From sequence record MH051917: DNA of 64,000 nucleotides; one strand, written 5' to 3'. This stretch comes from Enterobacteria phage vB_EcoM_IME341. Positions 19,609 to 26,567 of this stretch are shown here, piece by piece (position 1 is the stretch's first letter; each line of letters begins with the position of its first letter). The translations under genes and the position numbers were made by a program. Below the pieces are notes generated by a model. That model was not told the origin of the DNA, made no database searches, and was given only the letters and a program-made list of their open reading frames with translations.

Positions 19609-20025
19609 ATGACTCGTATTAACCTTACCTTAGTATCTGAATTGGCCGACCAACACTTAATGGCTGAATATCGCGAATTACCACGTGTTTTCGGTGCAGT
19701 TCGTAAGCATGTTGCTAATGGTAAACGTGTTCGTGATTTTAAAATTAGCTCTACTTTTATCCTTGGTACCGGCCATGTTACTTTCTTTTATGATAAGCTT
19801 GAATTTTTACGTAAACGTCAAATCGAGCTTATAGCCGAATGTTTAAAACGTGGTTTTAATATCAAGGACACTACGGTCCAAGACATTAGTGATATTCCTC
19901 AGGAATTCCGTGGTGACTATACTCCACACGAAGCTTCTATTGCTATATCTCAGGCCCGTTTGGACGAAAAAATTGCACAGCGTCCTACCTGGTACAAACA
20001 TTATGGCAAGGCTATTTACGCTTAA
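19609..20025 (+). CDS. denV: endonuclease V, pyrimidine dimer DNA glycosylase
   Basis: [35 protein letters not shown]... nearly identical to T4 endo V; ORF-track start 19594 is an upstream in-frame ATG. Confidence 0.95.
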
Positions 20026-20067
20026 TTAAATCCGTGATAGAATACTTCTATCAACTTAAGGAATAAT

Positions 20068-20367
20068 ATGAAAACTTATCAAGAATTTATTACAGAAGCC
20101 AAAGCTCCTAAAGCATTTCAAATTGGAGTTCAAGGCAATTTAGACCAAGAATATGTTGATGCTATTGTAGCAAGCCTCGGTAAACAGGGTGTACAAGTGG
20201 ATTTTGTTGATTTTACCAAAGGTAATACTTTTAATATTGTTACATCTAAAGGTTCTTTAGCTAAAGTTAAAAAGGCCTTTGGCGTAGCACAAGCATATGA
20301 AATCGACCACTCCGAATTGGAAAATAAAGGTCGCCAGAACACAATTAAAGGTTCTGGTTCTTTCTAA
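20068..20367 (+). CDS. internal-protein-like protein with capsid-targeting sequence
   Basis: N-terminus MKTYQEFITEAKAP; 99 aa. Confidence 0.65.
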   Translation: MKTYQEFITEAKAPKAFQIGVQGNLDQEYVDAIVASLGKQGVQVDFVDFTKGNTFNIVTSKGSLAKVKKAFGVAQAYEIDHSELENKGRQNTIKGSGSF

Positions 20368-20463
20368 TAAAGGCAAGCCGGCCCTCTCCTCATGAACGTC
20401 GCGTCCTCTGAGTGATGGACCTTTCCCTACCTGTAATAAGGTCGAGCCCAAGTGCGGTAAAGG

Positions 20464-20492
20464 GTTTACATACGGATACATGGACGAATTAT
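20464..20492 (+). promoter_or_regulatory. possible early promoter (GTTTAC, weak -10)
   Basis: gtttacatacggatacatggacgaattat. Confidence 0.3.
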
Positions 20493-20527
20493 GTGCCAAG
20501 GAACGGCCCCACCACTAAGAGACTACT

Positions 20528-21055
20528 ATGAAATTTTTAACTCCCATTTATCTAACCTTAATGCACGCCTTCGCTGAACGCGCCATTGAACGTTTAGACT
20601 CAGACCAATATACCTGGTATGAACCTGCTTCAAGAATGCAAGAGTTTGGTACTCTTCGACTTGATGGCGGACGCCAAACAGGTAAAACAAGTGCCCTTGC
20701 TCAGTTCGCAGCTGATTGGGTTTCCAAGGGTAATGATGTGATTGTTATGTCAAGTTCTTCGCATCGCTCGCGGGAAATCTGTAATATAATAAAGCGGGTT
20801 TCTAAGGCACAACCGCATCTTAATGTTGACCAACCCGGTTTTATCGTCTACGATACTGTTCGTTCATTTTTAGATGAAGATCATTTCCATAAGTACCGTG
20901 GGCTATCTGTTACCCGATTATTGATTATTATTGAAGAGCCGATGCGCCTTCCGGCAATGGATAAGTTCTATGAAGCTTATCAGGTAATGATTAATAAATT
21001 TATGTGCCAAGGCGACAAACCTTTACCTCTGTTCTTTGTGATAGGAATGCAATGA
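20528..21055 (+). CDS. P-loop NTPase of unknown function
   Basis: Walker A GGRQTGKTS; 175 aa. Confidence 0.55.
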   Translation: MKFLTPIYLTLMHAFAERAIERLDSDQYTWYEPASRMQEFGTLRLDGGRQTGKTSALAQFAADWVSKGNDVIVMSSSSHRSREICNIIKRVSKAQPHLNVDQPGFIVYDTVRSFLDEDHFHKYRGLSVTRLLIIIEEPMRLPAMDKFYEAYQVMINKFMCQGDKPLPLFFVIGMQ

Positions 21056-21348
21056 TGACTGATGAAGAACTTTTTGAGTTCTGTTATTTCTCACGTAAGG
21101 TTCGAAGAGAGGACCTTACCGCGAATTTTGAATATGCTTATTTTTACCCACTAGAATACGTGTTCATGACAGGGCCCTTTAAGGGCTCTCGTTTTAGATG
21201 TCATGCCCCAAGCATCCGATTAATGAAACAGGTTCCTTACTTTACCCTCGAGTTCATCTCAGGGCCTTGTAAGGGTATTATTACTCGCAGTCTCTTAACT
21301 TATGACCAAGAGATTCATATGATTTCTGACTGGAAGAAATATGTCTAA
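21052..21348 (+). CDS. hypothetical protein
   Basis: 98 aa from ATG overlapping previous stop. Confidence 0.45.
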   Translation: MMTDEELFEFCYFSRKVRREDLTANFEYAYFYPLEYVFMTGPFKGSRFRCHAPSIRLMKQVPYFTLEFISGPCKGIITRSLLTYDQEIHMISDWKKYV

Positions 21349-21559
21349 ATTGACAATTGAAGGCTCTGATGAAGCTCTGAAGATGTTTGTTGACTGGTTC
21401 CACGGACAGGGCGAACAAGGCTTTTTGGAATGTTGGGATGGCGGACGCTGGAATGGTAAAGAAACCGTTTATCCTAGCACATATATCTCTGTTCGTGGTG
21501 GATATGACGGGATTCATTTAGTTGAATACGATATTGCATCTGATGAGGAAGTGAAATGA
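21341..21559 (+). CDS. hypothetical protein
   Basis: 72 aa, overlaps previous gene end. Confidence 0.45.
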   Translation: MSKLTIEGSDEALKMFVDWFHGQGEQGFLECWDGGRWNGKETVYPSTYISVRGGYDGIHLVEYDIASDEEVK

Positions 21560-21834
21560 TTGAAGATATTAAGGGTTACAAACCACATACCGACGACAAA
21601 ATCAGTAAAGTGAACGCGATTAAAGATGCTGAAGTTCGATTAGGGTTAATCTTTAAAGCCTTGGAAGAAGAATATGTTGAAGCCTTTACATGCTCGGGTG
21701 TTGACAAAATGAGTGATGAAGAATTCAACCTCACCCATGAACGCCTAGCCCAGATTCGTACGGCAATCGAACGCTTGAAAGAAGCAAGCATGTGGGCGTG
21801 TCGTTCCGTTTTCCAGCCCGAGGAAAAATACTGA
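21556..21834 (+). CDS. hypothetical protein
   Basis: 92 aa, ATGA overlap. Confidence 0.45.
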   Translation: MIEDIKGYKPHTDDKISKVNAIKDAEVRLGLIFKALEEEYVEAFTCSGVDKMSDEEFNLTHERLAQIRTAIERLKEASMWACRSVFQPEEKY

Positions 21835-22043
21835 TGAAAATTGAAAGTTTACAAGATTTCCAGCGTATCATTGGTGAAGCCTGTACCGGCTACCACAAAT
21901 ACTTGCTTGACGACCAAATGGCTTGTCTCGAAGAAGGTGAAGTACAGTATGCAGCCCAACGCCTTGAACAAGTGAAAGAGTTTTATCCTGTATTGGTAGA
22001 AATTTGTTCAGCTGCTGGAAAACTTACCCCATTCCAAGAATAA
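21834..22043 (+). CDS. hypothetical protein
   Basis: 69 aa from ATG overlapping previous TGA. Confidence 0.45.
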   Translation: MKIESLQDFQRIIGEACTGYHKYLLDDQMACLEEGEVQYAAQRLEQVKEFYPVLVEICSAAGKLTPFQE

Positions 22044-22047
22044 AGCA

Positions 22048-22076
22048 GTTTACATCTCCTGTAGACATGATACTAT
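22048..22076 (+). promoter_or_regulatory. early promoter cassette with RBS-sequestering inverted repeat
   Basis: gtttacatctcctgtagacatgatactataaacctatcaactacaggag; arms ctcctgtag / ctacaggag (SD in 3' arm). Confidence 0.6.
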
Positions 22077-22104
22077 AAACCTATCAACTACAGGAGATTA
22101 CAAA

Positions 22105-22563
22105 ATGTCAGAAATTAATTCAGAAGTATTCATCCGCCGCAACAAATTACGTCGTCAGTTCGAAACCGAATTCCGTGAACTGAATGCGTCCATCAAAAAA
22201 GCCGCCATTAAGAGCGGTGTCCCAGCCTTCTTTATTAAGTACTCTAATCACTTGTTGGACCGTGCTATCCAACGTGAAATCGACGAAAAATACGTTTTTG
22301 CTTTATTCAAGCAACTCCATAACCATGTTAAAGAAATCCACGAATTCTTAATCCAGGAACCTCTGCCTGATGTAGAATCCGAAATTGTCCCTGGTAAAGT
22401 GTATCGTCCATTGCGTCTCGAAATTACCGATAAAACCTTATGGCTAGGTATGACAGTAGACCGTAAACATCCTGATAAAGGATATTCCCTTAAATGTCGT
22501 ATGGCATTTGTTAACTCTAAACGTTTAGAAGGTAAAACCAGCACTAAAGTAATCTATCTTTAA
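22105..22563 (+). CDS. hypothetical protein
   Basis: 152 aa after cassette. Confidence 0.5.
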   Translation: MSEINSEVFIRRNKLRRQFETEFRELNASIKKAAIKSGVPAFFIKYSNHLLDRAIQREIDEKYVFALFKQLHNHVKEIHEFLIQEPLPDVESEIVPGKVYRPLRLEITDKTLWLGMTVDRKHPDKGYSLKCRMAFVNSKRLEGKTSTKVIYL

Positions 22564-22575
22564 TAATGAGGTCTC

Positions 22576-23115
22576 ATGAAAAAAGTATTAGCCACTTTAC
22601 TATTGACAGTTAGTATGTCTGCCCATAGCGTAGAGCCTACTTTCAGTAATGAACAACTCGATAATTTACATTACGCGTATGCTTTCGGTGAACAATACCA
22701 AAAGTCGGGAAAGTTCAAAGAAAACCCTAATCAAAAAGGATTAGGATATATCATGGCCGGATTACTATGGCAGGAATCATCCGCCGGAATTAATCAAGGT
22801 TTAAATAAAGATAAGCACCATGCTTATGGCATGTTCCAAAATTACTTGCCTACGTTAAGAAGTCGTGTTCAACAGGTAGGTTGGAAGATGTCAGACAAAG
22901 AAATAATTCGTATGGTCCAAAAACGACAGAACAGTGCCTCTTGGGCCTACATTGAGCTGTCTTATTGGATTGATGTTCACAAAGGTGACCTGAGAAAAGC
23001 GATTGCTTCTTATAATGCGGGCTGGAACGTCAAAGCAGGCAGTAAGTATGCTTCTGAAGTTCTAGAAAAGGCCAATTACCTAAAATCTAAAAAGATGTTT
23101 GAGGCGGTATATTAA
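22576..23115 (+). CDS. secreted lytic transglycosylase-like protein (SLT domain)
   Basis: Signal peptide MKKVLATLLLTVSMSAHS; SLT motifs ES (WQESSAG), YGMFQ, ASYNAG. Confidence 0.65.
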   Translation: MKKVLATLLLTVSMSAHSVEPTFSNEQLDNLHYAYAFGEQYQKSGKFKENPNQKGLGYIMAGLLWQESSAGINQGLNKDKHHAYGMFQNYLPTLRSRVQQVGWKMSDKEIIRMVQKRQNSASWAYIELSYWIDVHKGDLRKAIASYNAGWNVKAGSKYASEVLEKANYLKSKKMFEAVY

Positions 23116-23472
23116 ATGATTAAGCAGATGACTATAGCGCTTATGTTGATCGCTCCGGGAGTATTAGCGTCACAAGTTGATGATAGCAATAATTCAATTG
23201 TTGAGTATGCTACCCGCACAGCAAAAGATTATTGTCATCCAAGTAATACTGAATGCGTTATCGAATTCAGTTCAAAAATCACAGCGGCTTTTAAAGATGG
23301 ACAGAACGACGTAGAGCATCGCAGAATGAAAGAGAAAACTCTTTCTAAAAGGTACGAGCAACGTCTAAACGTTACTGAATGTGTTCCATCTGATAAAAAG
23401 TACAAAGAAATGTGTGCGTCTATGGTAGACAGACTCGTTGACTCATACAACCGAGGATTAAACTCTAAATGA
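23116..23472 (+). CDS. secreted protein of unknown function
   Basis: 118 aa with N-terminal signal peptide MIKQMTIALMLIAPGVLAS, four Cys. Confidence 0.5.
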   Translation: MIKQMTIALMLIAPGVLASQVDDSNNSIVEYATRTAKDYCHPSNTECVIEFSSKITAAFKDGQNDVEHRRMKEKTLSKRYEQRLNVTECVPSDKKYKEMCASMVDRLVDSYNRGLNSK

Positions 23473-23936
23473 TTATTGATTATATTAAGGGCGATATAGT
23501 CGCCCTGTTTCTTCAAGGTAATAATGTTGCACACGGGTGCAATTGTTTCCATACAATGGGTTCAGGTGTAGCCGGACAATTGGCTAAGGCTTATCCGCCT
23601 ATTCTCGCTATCGATAAAACCACTTATTTAGGTGGGGTAGAAAAACTTGGCACGTTTACCCAAGCCACAGGTAATAATGGCCAAATTTGCTATAATCTTT
23701 ATACGCAATACGAACCTGGCCCTAATCTTGATTATGGTGCTTTAGTAAACTGTATGATAGAATTAAACCGTACCGCAAAGGGTCTTTTGTTTAAACCCAG
23801 AATTTATATTCCTCGCATCGGTTGTGGTATTGCTGGTGGTGATTGGGACAAGGTTTATCAATTGATTAATTTGTTTACTCCTGATATTAATTTAGTGGTG
23901 GTAGATTATGAAAGCCCATTACCCACATCCGTTTGA
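23469..23936 (+). CDS. macro domain (ADP-ribose-binding/processing) protein
   Basis: 155 aa; N-terminal glycine-rich loop NVAHGCNC...MGSGVAGQ and C-terminal GCGIAGGDW as in macro domains. Confidence 0.55.
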   Translation: MIIDYIKGDIVALFLQGNNVAHGCNCFHTMGSGVAGQLAKAYPPILAIDKTTYLGGVEKLGTFTQATGNNGQICYNLYTQYEPGPNLDYGALVNCMIELNRTAKGLLFKPRIYIPRIGCGIAGGDWDKVYQLINLFTPDINLVVVDYESPLPTSV

Positions 23937-24120
23937 CCCTAAAAACAAAGCGGAAATTATTCGACGCTGGACCGAAACCCGAGTAACCAAATGTCCTATA
24001 AAAAGTCAACACAACACCGATAAATGGTATATCGGTGAATACGTTGAATATACTTTTATAGATAAAAATAAACGTAAACATCATGTAGAAGAATATTGCT
24101 TAAAGGTGCAATGGCTATGA
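23908..24120 (+). CDS. hypothetical basic protein
   Basis: 70 aa ORF overlapping previous gene 3' end. Confidence 0.35.
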   Translation: MKAHYPHPFDPKNKAEIIRRWTETRVTKCPIKSQHNTDKWYIGEYVEYTFIDKNKRKHHVEEYCLKVQWL

Positions 24121-24302
24121 GTCTGAGTAAAGAACAGAAAGATAAATTGTTTGAGCTTATCCATGAGCTTTTGGATGAGCATACAGAAGCAAACGCCTTT
24201 TATGATGAATACGGTCCAATAGATGCCGAACATCAGGAAGAATTTGCCAATCGATTTGATGAGAAAGAAAATGAATTAATAGCTTATGTAAATAGTCTTT
24301 AA
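24117..24302 (+). CDS. small acidic protein
   Basis: 61 aa from ATG overlapping previous TGA. Confidence 0.4.
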   Translation: MSLSKEQKDKLFELIHELLDEHTEANAFYDEYGPIDAEHQEEFANRFDEKENELIAYVNSL

Positions 24303-24311
24303 GAAGGTAAT

Positions 24312-24884
24312 ATGGCCCAACTTTATTTTCACTACGCAGCAATGAATTCCGGGAAGACCGCTTCATTGCTAACAGCCGCTCATAACTACAAAGAACGTGG
24401 TATGGGCGTACTTCTTTTAAAGCCTGCGATAGACAATAGAGAATCAAGCCATAGCATTTCGTCTCGTATAGGGATTAGCCAAGAGGCTAATGCAGTGACT
24501 CCAGATATGGACCTATACGAGTTCTATCGTTGGGCTGAATCTCAAAAAGATATCCACTGCGTGTTTGTGGATGAAGCACAGTTCTTAGAACCAATACAGA
24601 TAAAACAACTGGCAAAGATAGTAGACAATTATAATGTTCCAGTTATGTGCTATGGGCTAAGAACTGATTTTCAGGGTAAACTGTTTCCTGGTTCTGCTGA
24701 ATTACTCGCTACAGCAGATAAACTCGTTGAGTACAAAGGTGTGTGCCATTGTGGACGTAAAGCTACTATGACGGCTCGTATCCAAGATGGTATCGCAATT
24801 AAGGACGGTGACCAAGTTTCTATAGGTGGCAACGATTCTTACGTGTCATTGTGCAGGAAGCACTGGATAGAAATAACGAGTTGA
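24312..24884 (+). CDS. tk: thymidine kinase
   Basis: 190 aa; P-loop MNSGKT, VDEAQF, C-terminal Zn ribbon CHCGRKA...CRKH; resembles E. coli Tdk and T4 tk. Confidence 0.9.
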   Translation: MAQLYFHYAAMNSGKTASLLTAAHNYKERGMGVLLLKPAIDNRESSHSISSRIGISQEANAVTPDMDLYEFYRWAESQKDIHCVFVDEAQFLEPIQIKQLAKIVDNYNVPVMCYGLRTDFQGKLFPGSAELLATADKLVEYKGVCHCGRKATMTARIQDGIAIKDGDQVSIGGNDSYVSLCRKHWIEITS

Positions 24885-24891
24885 GGGTACT

Positions 24892-25170
24892 ATGGACCTA
24901 AATTCAAAGATTTTAATTCTAGCGTTCGCTGTGGCTATTTCTTATATTGTTCTTTCGCCTATCATGGATGATGTGGCTTACAAAAGAGAGATAGAGGTTG
25001 TAGCAGCGACGTATAATGCTAATAATAAAGAATGCCCTAATAAAAATGGGATGGATTTAATTAAAGCGCATTATATGCTTTCCATTACCTCGCCTATACA
25101 GAGGAATTGGGTTGAATATAATTTTAACGACGTGTTCTATTCTTATTGTCGTAAGCTTAAAAAGCTATAA
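24892..25170 (+). CDS. small membrane protein
   Basis: 92 aa, N-terminal hydrophobic helix. Confidence 0.45.
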   Translation: MDLNSKILILAFAVAISYIVLSPIMDDVAYKREIEVVAATYNANNKECPNKNGMDLIKAHYMLSITSPIQRNWVEYNFNDVFYSYCRKLKKL

Positions 25171-25262
25171 ATAATAATACTAACCGTAGAGCTTTAGCTT
25201 TTGGTAATCGCTATCGGTTAAGGCCGAAAGGCAAATAGTATAAAACAACAAAGGACATTTGT

Positions 25263-25556
25263 ATGGATATTTTCCGTACAGCGGCTTGTATCCTTATGGC
25301 GGGATGTTTAGGCCCTTCAGTTTCACTAGCAAATGATACCAATGATAAATTGATGGACGCGTTTGCTAGTAGTGCGATGCCTGTTTATGCGCAAATGAGT
25401 AGACCCAGCGTAAAAGCCTCCGAAGATTATTGGGCCTATGTTACGGCTTCCTGGAAGAATTCAAGTTGTCGGACTATAGAAGCGTGCTCAATTGAAGGTC
25501 GTGCCATCGGAGAGCGTTATGCAAAACTAATGAAGGTAGAAGATGAAATTCAATGA
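25263..25556 (+). CDS. predicted lipoprotein
   Basis: Signal peptide with lipobox LMAGC. Confidence 0.5.
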   Translation: MDIFRTAACILMAGCLGPSVSLANDTNDKLMDAFASSAMPVYAQMSRPSVKASEDYWAYVTASWKNSSCRTIEACSIEGRAIGERYAKLMKVEDEIQ

Positions 25557-25926
25557 TTTCGTACCCGGTCGAGGGTCTGAAGTGGATTCTTATATTGGTT
25601 GGCTACTGGTTTCTTTAGCCTATTTTAAGTCAGCCCATTTAGAAACCAAAAGCTATGCAAGACACAAAGCGTATGACTTCTATTATGTAGAAGTTCAAGG
25701 ACCTCTGGACCAATTTAGTGAGCAATATCTTGGATTCAGTGGCAAAGAATATAAAGCATCATTACCGTCTGCTTCAGACTTGCCTAAGGACCCTGTAGAT
25801 TTCCTTGATGAGCTTCTTAAAGCAACTGATAAAATCTATGGCACTCTTCCTAAGGCCATCCAGTCGACTTTGGACGATATCACTGGCGTCTTTTACCAGA
25901 CTAAGTATTTGCTGACGTTAGAATAA
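25543..25926 (+). CDS. hypothetical protein
   Basis: 127 aa, followed by strong terminator. Confidence 0.5.
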   Translation: MKFNDFVPGRGSEVDSYIGWLLVSLAYFKSAHLETKSYARHKAYDFYYVEVQGPLDQFSEQYLGFSGKEYKASLPSASDLPKDPVDFLDELLKATDKIYGTLPKAIQSTLDDITGVFYQTKYLLTLE

Positions 25927-25930
25927 TCAA

Positions 25931-25957
25931 AGGTCTCACTTCGGTGGGACCTTTTTT
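25931..25957 (+). terminator. intrinsic terminator
   Basis: aggtctcac-ttcg-gtgggacct + TTTTTT. Confidence 0.7.
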
Positions 25958-25966
25958 CGTTTAGGT

Positions 25967-25995
25967 GTTTACATCCTCTAGGAACATGATACTAT
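25967..25995 (+). promoter_or_regulatory. early promoter cassette
   Basis: gtttacatcctctaggaacatgatactatagacctatcaactaatgagg. Confidence 0.6.
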
Positions 25996-26023
25996 AGACC
26001 TATCAACTAATGAGGAAAACAGT

Positions 26024-26260
26024 ATGAAACTTACAAGTACTACGGTTTCATTAGAATATGAAATCAACGGTCGTATCCTTGAGATTAAGATATTCGACGA
26101 CCGAAGTATCTTTGCCGATTATCGAGGATACAGAATTCGTCTGGAAAAGGACGAGCTCAAGGAACCGTGGCTCCTTAAAGACACATTAAAGGGTTGTGGG
26201 TGTAAACTGAAAACCACCCAAGCCCAAGAATTAATTTCTACTATCAACAAATACTGGTGA
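26024..26260 (+). CDS. hypothetical protein
   Basis: 78 aa. Confidence 0.5.
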   Translation: MKLTSTTVSLEYEINGRILEIKIFDDRSIFADYRGYRIRLEKDELKEPWLLKDTLKGCGCKLKTTQAQELISTINKYW

Positions 26261-26264
26261 TATT

Positions 26265-26447
26265 ATGTTAACTACTGAACAGTGTGCAAAAATTCTTAAA
26301 TTGGCTATTGAAATTGAAAGAGATTCTAACGACCTTGCGGTTGAGATGTGTGAAGGTTATTCATATTCCGGAATAGAACGGTGTAAACGAGATTTGGCTA
26401 AATCAAAACAGGCTTTGGTTGATTATTTAGAAGAATTGAAAGCATAA
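26265..26447 (+). CDS. hypothetical protein
   Basis: 60 aa. Confidence 0.45.
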   Translation: MLTTEQCAKILKLAIEIERDSNDLAVEMCEGYSYSGIERCKRDLAKSKQALVDYLEELKA

Positions 26448-26471
26448 TGGCTGGTGGCATAGGAGCATGAT

Positions 26472-26567
26472 ATGATTTACTATCTTGAACCTTGGGCTTG
26501 GCTAACAATGGCTGTAGGGCCTGTTTTAATTGGTTTATTCTTTTCATGGTTAGCGAGGAAACTGTAA
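26472..26567 (+). CDS. possible 31-aa hydrophobic peptide
   Basis: MIYYLEPWAWLTMAVGPVLIGLFFSWLARKL after SD AGGAG; TAATG overlap with next ORF; below ORF-track size cutoff. Confidence 0.3.
   Translation: MIYYLEPWAWLTMAVGPVLIGLFFSWLARKL

What the first reader, a model, noticed from the sequence alone, without database searches (positions are those of the whole stretch)
23469..23936. Macro-domain protein in the early region
The 155-aa ORF has the two glycine-rich loops characteristic of macro domains (N-terminal ...GCNC...MGSGVAGQ and C-terminal GCGIAGGDW). Macro domains bind or hydrolyse ADP-ribose adducts. In a phage whose relatives encode ADP-ribosyltransferases (Alt/ModA/ModB) and whose hosts use ADP-ribosylation- or NAD-based defenses, this is a plausible counter-defense or regulator of phage-induced ADP-ribosylation.
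Basis: partly seen in the sequence, partly recalled or inferred. Interest (0 to 1): 0.55.

Follow-up and report, generated by a model that had tools for sequence, protein, structure and literature searches.

The report
Phage macrodomain Tk.4/AdfM, anti-DarTG2 factor
This small phage gene really does encode a macrodomain enzyme; it is the counterpart of phage T4 gene tk.4 (adfM), recently shown to protect T4 from a bacterial defence that tags phage DNA with ADP-ribose, so it is real but already explained.

Summary
Window 23469..23936 (+) is a 155-aa ORF with both glycine-rich loops. It passes the Pfam Macro threshold and gives a confident macrodomain model (pLDDT 94.5). Its five best structural neighbours all belong to the TARG1/DarG/SCO6735/Poa1p class.

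The window is a T4-like Dhakavirus, about 98% identical to phage IME08. The ORF is 100% identical to IME08 Tk.4 and 53% identical to T4 Tk.4, with the same length and the same regB-vs.1-vs-tk.4-tk.3-tk.2-tk gene order.

A 2025 preprint found T4 tk.4 to be the only T4 gene needed to resist the DarTG2 defence and renamed it adfM. The most likely function here is therefore removal of the ADP-ribose that DarT2 puts on thymidines in single-stranded phage DNA.

My additions:
- The family carries an invariant glutamine (Q80) where DarG and TARG1 have their catalytic lysine, as in Streptomyces SCO6735.
- It fails the curated DarG test, and its closest bacterial relatives are not next to darT genes. 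It works like DarG but is not a DarG member.
- It is also only distantly related to the PhiKZ protein that is likewise called AdfM.

Verdict: already known kind, low-to-moderate interest. Separately, a conserved hairpin lies inside the 5' end of the gene.

The parts
23469..23936 (+). tk.4 / adfM orthologue: 155-aa single-domain macrodomain protein (end coordinate includes the stop codon)
   Evidence: ORF. 100% identical to IME08 Tk.4 and 53% identical to T4 Tk.4, E 1e-61. Pfam Macro. AF2 model pLDDT 94.5. Fold matches.
23453..23456 (+). Shine-Dalgarno-like GAGG, 12 nt upstream of the ATG, inside the end of gene vs. The ATG overlaps the vs stop codon (ATGA at 23469-23472), which suggests translational coupling.
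   Evidence: Read from the sequence. The same CGAGGATT lies upstream of T4 tk.4. That it functions as a ribosome-binding site is inferred.
23532..23546 (+). H22-G23-C24-N25-C26 motif. N25 aligns with SCO6735 Asn27 and PhiKZ AdfM Asn23. H22 aligns with SCO6735 His24. G23 aligns with Val25, the residue whose backbone was proposed to position the catalytic water.
   Evidence: H22, G23 and N25 are invariant in 64 homologues. Alignments. Mutagenesis of the equivalent residues: N27S nearly inactive in SCO6735 (PMC9411070); N23A reduces PhiKZ AdfM activity (PMC13309987).
23556..23579 (+). Glycine-rich loop 1 (M30-G-S-G-V-A-G-Q37), the GxG loop after strand 2 that lines the ADP-ribose cleft
   Evidence: G33 and A35 invariant, M30 and G31 nearly invariant. 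G31 and G33 are conserved across TARG1, DarG, SCO6735, BT1257 and PhiKZ gp104.
23706..23708 (+). Codon for Q80, the glutamine at the position of the catalytic lysine of TARG1 (K84) and DarG (K80). It is equivalent to the essential Gln85 of SCO6735.
   Evidence: hhalign of the family profile against SCO6735 and Taq DarG, plus HMM and MAFFT alignments. Invariant in 64 phage/metagenome homologues and in 54/54 bacterial homologues, where it was not part of the search pattern. Q85A inactivates SCO6735 (PMC9411070).
23820..23846 (+). Glycine-rich loop 2, the phosphate-binding loop G118-C-G-I-A-G-G-D-W126. G120 aligns with SCO6735 Gly128.
   Evidence: G118, G120 and W126 invariant; A122, G123 and G124 at 90% or more. 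Identical in type to PRIGCGLAGG of SCO6735 and BT1257. T4 itself is atypical here (GAGIGKGNW).
23488..23506 (+). Conserved GC-rich hairpin inside codons 7-13 (AGGGCGAT-ATA-GTCGCCCT), followed by a T-rich tract. Its role is unknown and its membership in the functional unit is uncertain.
   Evidence: Flagged as terminator-like. Present at the same codons in T4, other Tequatrovirus, Krischvirus and Vequintavirus relatives, with compensatory changes at three pairs. The strong form has P about 0.005 under synonymous recoding with the window's codon usage.

Best explanation
The ORF is the Dhakavirus orthologue of T4 tk.4 (adfM). I propose it is an early-expressed, stand-alone macrodomain ADP-ribosylglycohydrolase that protects the phage from DarTG2-type defence. 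DarT2 uses NAD+ to attach ADP-ribose to thymidines in TNTC motifs of single-stranded DNA, which blocks phage DNA replication. This protein binds the ADP-ribose moiety in the cleft formed by its two glycine-rich loops and hydrolyses the bond between the thymine base and the ribose, restoring unmodified DNA. The chemistry is probably the lysine-independent type described for Streptomyces SCO6735. In that mechanism Gln (here Q80), held in place by Asn (N25), positions the distal ribose, and a backbone-held water attacks. It is not the Lys-dependent chemistry of DarG and TARG1. What is shown: the fold, the class, orthology to T4 Tk.4, and conservation of every residue found important in SCO6735. 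What is shown only for relatives: the requirement for DarTG2 resistance (T4 Tk.4, genetics) and thymidine-ADP-ribose hydrolysis (SCO6735, DarG, TARG1, PhiKZ AdfM, biochemistry). What is inferred: that this orthologue has the same substrate, the Gln-type mechanism, and early expression.

For: Orthology. The protein is 100% identical to IME08 Tk.4 and 53% identical to T4 Tk.4 over 154 aa, E 1e-61. Length is the same, and the regB-vs.1-vs-tk.4-tk.3-tk.2-tk order matches.

Function of the orthologue. T4 tk.4 was the single significant hit on a DarTG2 host, and a clean knockout was sensitised to DarTG2 (bioRxiv 10.1101/2025.11.20.689424). T4 lacking adfA and adfN remains DarTG2-resistant, which had predicted a further factor (PMC11825919).

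Active site. Q80 aligns with SCO6735 Gln85, N25 with Asn27, G120 with Gly128 and H22 with His24. H22, N25, Q80 and G120 are invariant across the family. In the bacterial homologues Q80 is 54/54, an independent test because it lay outside the search patterns; H22, N25 and G120 lay inside those patterns. SCO6735 cleaves DarT-made thymidine-ADP-ribose on ssDNA and rescues DarT toxicity. Its Q85A mutant is dead and N27S nearly dead (PMC9411070).
Confidence: 0.75

Rival explanations
1. It is an enzyme for soluble ADP-ribose derivatives, as its database name 'phosphatase' implies. Candidate substrates are ADP-ribose-1''-phosphate (as for yeast Poa1p), O-acetyl-ADP-ribose, or ADP-ribose-derived immune signals or toxins. 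In that case it would not act on DNA.
Against: The T4 orthologue has a specific DarTG2 phenotype, and DarT2 acts on DNA. As far as I know, T4-type RNA repair (Pnk/Rnl) does not go through the Tpt1/KptA step that makes Appr1p. My reading is that the 'phosphatase' label comes from the old domain name A1pp (T4 note 'contains A1pp phosphatase motif') and not from an assay. The second loop of Poa1p (PQINSGIFGVPW) differs from this protein, whereas SCO6735 has the same PRIGCG[IL]AGG.
Confidence: 0.08
2. It neutralises DarT2 or another ADP-ribosyltransferase toxin mainly by a route other than DNA de-ADP-ribosylation. It could bind and inhibit the toxin directly, or erase uracil-linked ADP-ribose from RNA, acting as a broader eraser of base-linked ADP-ribose.
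For: Catalytically dead SCO6735 Q85A still inhibits DarT in vitro, more strongly than DarG or TARG1 mutants (PMC9411070). SCO6735, TARG1 and DarG also remove ADP-ribose from uracil in ssRNA (PMC13036486).
Against: The protein is a bare 155-aa macrodomain without the C-terminal DarT-binding domain of DarG. Strict conservation of the catalytic-site residues across hundreds of homologues points to enzymatic activity (Q80 also 54/54). No RNA uracil ADP-ribosylating defence against T-even phages appears in the papers I read.
Confidence: 0.1
3. It reverses or tunes the phage's own ADP-ribosylation of host proteins by Alt, ModA and ModB.
For: T-even phages encode these transferases (established knowledge, also summarised in PMC9503650), and a matching eraser would make biological sense.
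Against: Alt and Mod enzymes modify arginine (established knowledge). The characterised members of this macrodomain class act on thymine/uracil-linked and glutamate/aspartate-linked ADP-ribose; none is reported to cleave arginine-linked ADP-ribose. No alt or mod gene is linked to tk.4 in the IME08 stretch matching this window. According to the preprint, the T4 knockout phenotype is specific to the DarTG2 host.
Confidence: 0.03

Closest known systems
T4 Tk.4 = AdfM (anti-DarT factor Macrodomain), bioRxiv 10.1101/2025.11.20.689424
   Same: Orthologue: 53% identity over the full length (E 1e-61), 155 aa in both, and the same position between vs and tk.3 in the regB-tk cluster. Both have the HGCNC motif, the NLYTQ motif with Q80, the short loop after Q80, and the 5' hairpin.
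   Different: The phosphate-binding loop is GCGIAGGDW here, which is the family consensus and matches SCO6735. T4 has the atypical GAGIGKGNW. This orthologue has not been tested experimentally.
Streptomyces coelicolor SCO6735 and Bacteroides BT1257 (PDB 5E3B, 2FG1/2AFC): stand-alone thymidine-ADP-ribose DNA hydrolase, PMC9411070
   Different: Only about 26% identity. The loop after the Gln is 5-6 residues shorter and lacks the lysines. The motif is HGCNC instead of H[VI]CND, and Gly replaces Val25.
DarG antitoxin macrodomain of DarTG2 (PDB 5M3I, 5M31/5M3E, 7OMU)
   Different: Q80 replaces the catalytic Lys80. There is no C-terminal DarT-binding domain. The NCBIfam DarG equivalog scores 20 bits against a cut-off of 250, and the PADLOC DarG model only 24 bits. 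There is no linked darT.
PhiKZ gp104, also named AdfM (Cell Rep 2026, PMC13309987)
   Same: A phage macrodomain that counters DarTG2. It was shown to remove DarT2-made ADP-ribose from DNA, and the equivalent Asn (N23) is important.
   Different: It belongs to a different clade. It is a true DarG-like macrodomain with the FPTK lysine (PADLOC DarG 133 bits; best PDB hit Mtb DarG, E 9e-25) and is only 20% identical to this protein. It is imported into the phage nucleus. Two unrelated recruitments therefore share one name.
Human TARG1/OARD1 and yeast Poa1p
   Same: Same class of macrodomain (Foldseek E 8e-10, TM 0.76-0.83). TARG1 removes thymine- and uracil-linked ADP-ribose. Poa1p shares the H-x-C-N-C motif.
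   Different: TARG1 uses a Lys84/Asp125 dyad, which corresponds here to Q80 and A122. Poa1p is named an ADP-ribose-1''-phosphate phosphatase in its PDB entries and has a different second loop.

Membership tests
Macro domain superfamily (Pfam PF01661) | Match to the family profile above the curated threshold | tested here: met
   33.1 bits against a gathering score of 22, E 5.9e-8, covering profile positions 2-117 of 118.
Macro domain superfamily (Pfam PF01661) | Three-layer alpha/beta/alpha fold with a central mixed sheet, superimposable on solved macrodomains | tested here: met
Macro domain superfamily (Pfam PF01661) | Binding of ADP-ribose or a derivative in the cleft between the two glycine-rich loops | not testable with these tools
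   Both loops are present and conserved. Ligand binding needs an experiment or docking on coordinates.
TARG1/ALC1-like macrodomain class (TARG1, DarG, SCO6735/BT1257, Poa1p) | Closest sequence and structure neighbours all lie in this class and are clearly separated from MacroD, viral Mac1 and PARG types | tested here: met
T4 Tk.4 / AdfM orthologous group | Full-length similarity to T4 Tk.4 | tested here: met
   53% identity, 71% positives over 154 aa, E 1e-61; both are 155 aa.
T4 Tk.4 / AdfM orthologous group | Conserved genomic position between vs and tk.3 in the regB-tk cluster | tested here: met
   The IME08 annotation of the near-identical region (97.8% DNA identity) and the T4 annotation give the same gene order.
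T4 Tk.4 / AdfM orthologous group | Needed for phage growth on a DarTG2-expressing host | not testable with these tools
   Shown for T4 only. Needs phage genetics.
DarG antitoxin (DarTG2) | Catalytic lysine (Lys80 in T. aquaticus DarG) | tested here: not met
   Q80 occupies this column. Gln is invariant in the family.
DarG antitoxin (DarTG2) | Two-domain architecture with a C-terminal DarT-binding domain; score above the curated DarG model cut-off | tested here: not met
   NCBIfam NF048014 scores 20.2 bits against a cut-off of 250 and matches only profile positions 3-138 of 338. The PADLOC DarG model gives 24 bits, against 133 bits for PhiKZ gp104.
DarG antitoxin (DarTG2) | Encoded next to a darT toxin gene | tested here: not met
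   There is no DarT2-like sequence in the window or within about 4 kb (less where the contig ends) of the 80 closest bacterial homologues: tblastn best E = 2.2 for the loci and 7.9 for the window. No DarT family appears among the 25 commonest Pfam families in the flanking ORFs of 59 of those loci. tblastn with one DarT2 sequence has limited sensitivity.
SCO6735/BT1257 subclass (lysine-less thymidine-ADP-ribose hydrolases) | Gln at the catalytic-lysine position, plus the Asn, His and Gly shown by mutagenesis to matter | tested here: met
   Q80=Gln85, N25=Asn27, H22=His24, G120=Gly128; mutagenesis in PMC9411070.
SCO6735/BT1257 subclass (lysine-less thymidine-ADP-ribose hydrolases) | 'Mobile loop' about five residues longer than in DarG and TARG1 | tested here: not met
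   The stretch Q80..Y89 is 10 residues here and in T4, against 15 in SCO6735, 16 in BT1257 and 13 in most bacterial homologues. The gap is visible.
SCO6735/BT1257 subclass (lysine-less thymidine-ADP-ribose hydrolases) | Hydrolysis of thymidine-linked ADP-ribose on ssDNA | not testable with these tools
   Needs an enzyme assay.
Poa1p-type ADP-ribose-1''-phosphate phosphatase | Structural and motif similarity to Poa1p | tested here: inconclusive

The most novel reading that the evidence does not exclude
The Tk.4-type AdfM proteins may be a third, mechanistically distinct lineage of thymine-ADP-ribose DNA glycohydrolases. They would be lysine-less like SCO6735 but have the short loop of DarG and TARG1. 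T-even and other large phages would have recruited them from widespread stand-alone bacterial macrodomains and not from the DarG antitoxin. In that case 'orphan antitoxin' would be the wrong origin story, and the name AdfM would cover two independent inventions (the T4 type and the PhiKZ type). In addition, their expression may be controlled by a conserved hairpin embedded in codons 7-13.
Probability: 0.4. Interest if true: 0.4.

Novelty: already known. Interest (0 to 1): 0.3.

Why it matters
DarTG systems stop phages by ADP-ribosylating their DNA. T-even phages carry layered counter-measures: AdfA, AdfN against DarTG1, and Tk.4/AdfM against DarTG2. Recognising this ORF as adfM replaces the misleading database label 'phosphatase' for a gene present in more than 2,700 phage records. 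It also predicts that IME08/JS98-like phages, some of which are considered for therapy, resist DarTG2-carrying E. coli.

The useful new point is mechanistic. The family has a glutamine, not the DarG lysine, at the catalytic position, and it is not a DarG by curated criteria. Inhibitor or specificity studies should therefore model it on SCO6735. The two proteins called AdfM should not be treated as one family.

Tried and rejected
1. DarG membership. I tested it with the NCBIfam and PADLOC models and by the catalytic-lysine column, and rejected it.

2. Co-opted DarG 'orphan antitoxin' origin. I fetched 80 bacterial loci, scanned the flanking ORFs of 59 of them with Pfam (116 ORFs), and ran tblastn with a P. 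aeruginosa DarT2 sequence taken from PMC13309987. No darT linkage was found. This argues against the idea but does not disprove it, because a single DarT2 query has limited reach and only the 25 commonest Pfam families were listed.

3. Equivalence with PhiKZ AdfM. Rejected: 20% identity and a different clade.

4. Promoter and terminator scan of 20000-26500. Promoter-like sites were not above the shuffled expectation (21 found against 18.2 +/- 4.7), so I make no promoter claim. A TTTACA-16-TACTAT site with an upstream TG at 22049-22076, just before regB, is only a candidate.

5. MAFFT alignment of the eight reference macrodomains. It misplaced the middle of BT1257 and SCO6735, so I relied on the HMM and hhalign alignments for Q80.

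6. CmdTAC (an mRNA ADP-ribosylating defence) as a target. The CmdTAC paper mentions macrodomains only in its reference list, and a later paper calls CmdT's adenine modification irreversible. I did not pursue it.

7. Poa1p paper. I could not find it in the library, so the residue equivalent to Q80 in Poa1p remains unresolved.

8. Model coordinates could not be inspected, so active-site geometry was not checked.

Full report
**Observation.** The window has an ATG-initiated ORF at 23469..23936 on the + strand encoding 155 aa. Its start codon overlaps the stop codon of the upstream ORF (ATGA at 23469-23472). A GAGG lies 12 nt upstream. The ORF passes the Pfam Macro gathering threshold (33.1 bits against 22, E 5.9e-8, nearly the whole profile). 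It matches PHROG 335 at E 6e-67.

**Where it sits.** The surrounding 2.5 kb is 97.8% identical to Escherichia phage IME08, a Dhakavirus of the Tevenvirinae. The protein is 100% identical to IME08 Tk.4. The gene order is regB, vs.1, vs, tk.4, tk.3, tk.2, tk, as in T4 except that T4 has an extra tk.1. The protein is 53% identical to T4 Tk.4 over 154 aa (E 1e-61), and both are 155 aa. Judged from the IME08 coordinates of tk.4, the whole window corresponds to roughly IME08 15.4-79.5 kb in reverse orientation. In the IME08 annotation that stretch carries other known counter-defence genes (57B/acb1, dmd) but no alt, modA or modB.

**Fold and class.** An AlphaFold2 model built on 64 homologues is confident (pLDDT 94.5, pTM 0.89).
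- Foldseek against the PDB gives TARG1, Poa1p, DarG and BT1257 at probability 1.00, E 8e-10 to 2e-7.
- The family profile finds the same set by sequence: BT1257 1e-19, TARG1 3e-18, SCO6735 1e-16, Poa1p 2e-14, DarG 1e-11.

The protein is therefore a macrodomain of the TARG1/ALC1-like class. Tested members of that class (TARG1, DarG, SCO6735) remove thymine-linked ADP-ribose from DNA and uracil-linked ADP-ribose from RNA (PMC9411070; PMC13036486).

**What is known about the orthologue.** A November 2025 preprint (bioRxiv 10.1101/2025.11.20.689424) screened a T4 transposon library on E. coli expressing DarTG2. It found tk.4 as the single significant hit, showed that a clean knockout becomes DarTG2-sensitive, and renamed the gene adfM. 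This filled a gap left by earlier work, in which T4 lacking adfA and adfN stayed fully DarTG2-resistant (PMC11825919). The preprint infers enzymatic removal of ADP-ribose from DNA by analogy with DarG. I found no biochemical assay of T4 Tk.4 itself.

**Active site.** In HMM, hhalign and MAFFT alignments, Q80 occupies the column of the catalytic Lys84 of TARG1 and Lys80 of DarG. The same column holds Gln85 in SCO6735 and a Gln in BT1257. Q80 is invariant in 64 phage and metagenome homologues. It is also invariant in 54 of 54 bacterial homologues, where it was not part of the search pattern.

For SCO6735, Q85A abolishes activity, N27S nearly abolishes it, and G128E reduces it. The enzyme removes DarT-made thymidine-ADP-ribose from ssDNA faster than DarG and rescues DarT toxicity. 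Its authors propose a lysine-independent, water-mediated mechanism (PMC9411070). The equivalents here are H22, N25, Q80 and G120, all invariant in the 64-sequence family alignment. The phosphate-binding loop PRIGCGIAGG matches the PRIGCGLAGG of SCO6735.

Two differences from SCO6735 stand out. The loop after the Gln is 10 residues, against 15-16. Gly replaces the Val whose backbone was proposed to hold the water.

T4 Tk.4 itself is the odd one in the second loop (GAGIGKGNW). The protein in this window carries the family consensus.

**Is it a DarG?** No, by three tests.
- It lacks the catalytic lysine.
- It is a single domain. It scores 20 bits against the NCBIfam DarG equivalog (cut-off 250) and 24 bits against the PADLOC DarG model, where PhiKZ gp104 scores 133.
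- It has no linked darT.

I also asked whether its nearest cellular relatives are DarTG antitoxins. At least 478 bacterial loci encode relatives; the 80 best are 32-43% identical and come from many phyla. The flanking ORFs of 59 of them are housekeeping or varied genes (rpoC, class I tRNA synthetases, EamA, NAPRTase, NADAR, NAD synthase), with no DarT among the 25 commonest families. A DarT2 query finds nothing in any of the 80 loci. The family therefore looks like a stand-alone macrodomain lineage that phages recruited. It works like DarG without being a DarG.

The other published 'AdfM', PhiKZ gp104, is different. It is a genuine DarG-like macrodomain with the FPTK lysine, it was shown to de-ADP-ribosylate DarT2-modified DNA (PMC13309987), and it is only 20% identical to this protein.

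**Most likely mechanism.** The gene is probably expressed early from the regB-tk transcription unit (inferred from T4 synteny). The protein would bind ADP-ribose attached by DarT2 to thymidines in single-stranded phage DNA and hydrolyse the base-ribose bond through a Gln/Asn-positioned, water-mediated reaction, allowing replication to continue. I put this at 0.75. The fold, class, orthology and residue conservation are shown here. The DarTG2 phenotype and the enzymology are shown only for relatives.

**Rivals.**
- A soluble-substrate enzyme, such as a Poa1p-like Appr1p phosphatase. This is the source of the 'phosphatase' label. It cannot be excluded by sequence, but it does not explain the T4 phenotype (0.08).
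- Protection mainly by binding DarT2, or by acting on RNA. This is suggested by SCO6735 Q85A inhibition of DarT and by U-ADPr activity (0.10).
It has no support (0.03).

**Novelty and interest.** The gene family, its name and its role are already published, and the GenBank record of the identical protein already calls it tk.4. I rate it already known, interest 0.3. The residual value lies in three points: the Gln-type active site, the failed DarG membership, and the fact that two unrelated macrodomain lineages now share the name AdfM.

**Seen in passing.**
- Hairpin. A GC-rich hairpin occupies codons 7-13 (23488-23506). It recurs at the same codons in T4, other Tequatrovirus, Krischvirus and Vequintavirus relatives (13 distinct sequences with all 7 pairs, in a bimodal distribution) and has compensatory changes at three pairs. 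It uses the minor codons GGC, GTC and GCC. The strong form has P about 0.005 under synonymous recoding with the window's codon usage.
- Allele pattern. tk.4 alleles do not follow taxonomy. T4 and Sf22, both Tequatrovirus, are 58% identical, while Sf22 and this Dhakavirus are 77% identical. A Krischvirus and a Vequintavirus share 70%.

Noticed in passing
window 23488-23506 (+), inside tk.4 codons 7-13; same codons in L002 (T4), L083, L086, L088, L091-L095, L098, L099, L105, L111, L114: A conserved GC-rich hairpin (AGGGCGAT-ATA-GTCGCCCT, about -13 kcal/mol) followed by a T-rich tract, flagged as terminator-like. Thirteen distinct sequences keep all 7 pairs. Compensatory changes occur at three pairs: G:C to A:T by two synonymous changes in L098/L099, C:G to A:T with Ala to Ser in the Vequintavirus, and T.G to C:G or T:A. 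The loop and neighbouring third-codon positions vary freely. The stem uses the minor codons GGC, GTC and GCC; the strong form has P about 0.005 under synonymous recoding. It is absent from lineages with GN..[KE] at these residues. It could be an attenuator or terminator after vs, an mRNA stabiliser, or a translation control element; I have not decided between these.
   Followed up: partly
window 23820-23846 compared with L002 (T4 tk.4): T4 Tk.4 is the only member of this clade with a genetic phenotype, yet it has an atypical phosphate-binding loop: GAGIGKGNW against the consensus G[CA]G[IL]AGGDW, which A1 shows at 90% or more. The window protein carries the consensus, the same type as SCO6735.
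   Followed up: partly
L002, L083, L086, L088 compared with window 23469-23936: tk.4 alleles do not track phage taxonomy. T4 and Sf22 (both Tequatrovirus) are 58% identical, while Sf22 and this Dhakavirus are 77% identical. Krischvirus W115 (Straboviridae) and Vequintavirus B9-1 are 70% identical. This suggests allele exchange between phage lineages, as expected for a counter-defence gene.
   Followed up: partly
L003-L082 (bacterial homologues of Tk.4): Of the 116 ORFs flanking the bacterial Tk.4-like macrodomains, several encode NAD-salvage or ADP-ribose enzymes: NAPRTase 4, NAMPT N-terminal domain 3, NADAR 2, NAD synthase 2. In Ruegeria the gene sits directly downstream of rpoC, and in Hyphomicrobiaceae directly downstream of a large ORF of about 1,050-1,100 aa that is probably the class I tRNA synthetase seen in the Pfam scan. 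None is next to darT.
   Followed up: partly
literature: T4 Tk.4 (this family) and PhiKZ gp104: Two papers independently coined 'AdfM' for macrodomains from different clades: T4 Tk.4 (Gln type; PADLOC DarG 36 bits) and PhiKZ gp104 (Lys type; PADLOC DarG 133 bits). PhiKZ gp104 is only 20% identical to the window protein.
   Followed up: yes
window 23908-24120 (+): The downstream ORF tk.3 (70 aa) overlaps the last 29 nt of tk.4 in another frame. With the ATGA overlap between vs and tk.4, this gives a tightly packed, probably translationally coupled gene string.
   Followed up: no
whole window, mapped onto IME08 about 15.4-79.5 kb reversed (L170, L171): From the IME08 annotation of the corresponding stretch, the window should also carry other anti-defence or host-takeover genes: 57B/acb1 (anti-CBASS in T4), dmd (anti-RnlA/LsoA), nudE, sp, imm, pin, and several small ORFs next to 61.1, where T4/RB69 adfA (61.2) would be expected. 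I did not examine them or confirm them in the window sequence.
   Followed up: no
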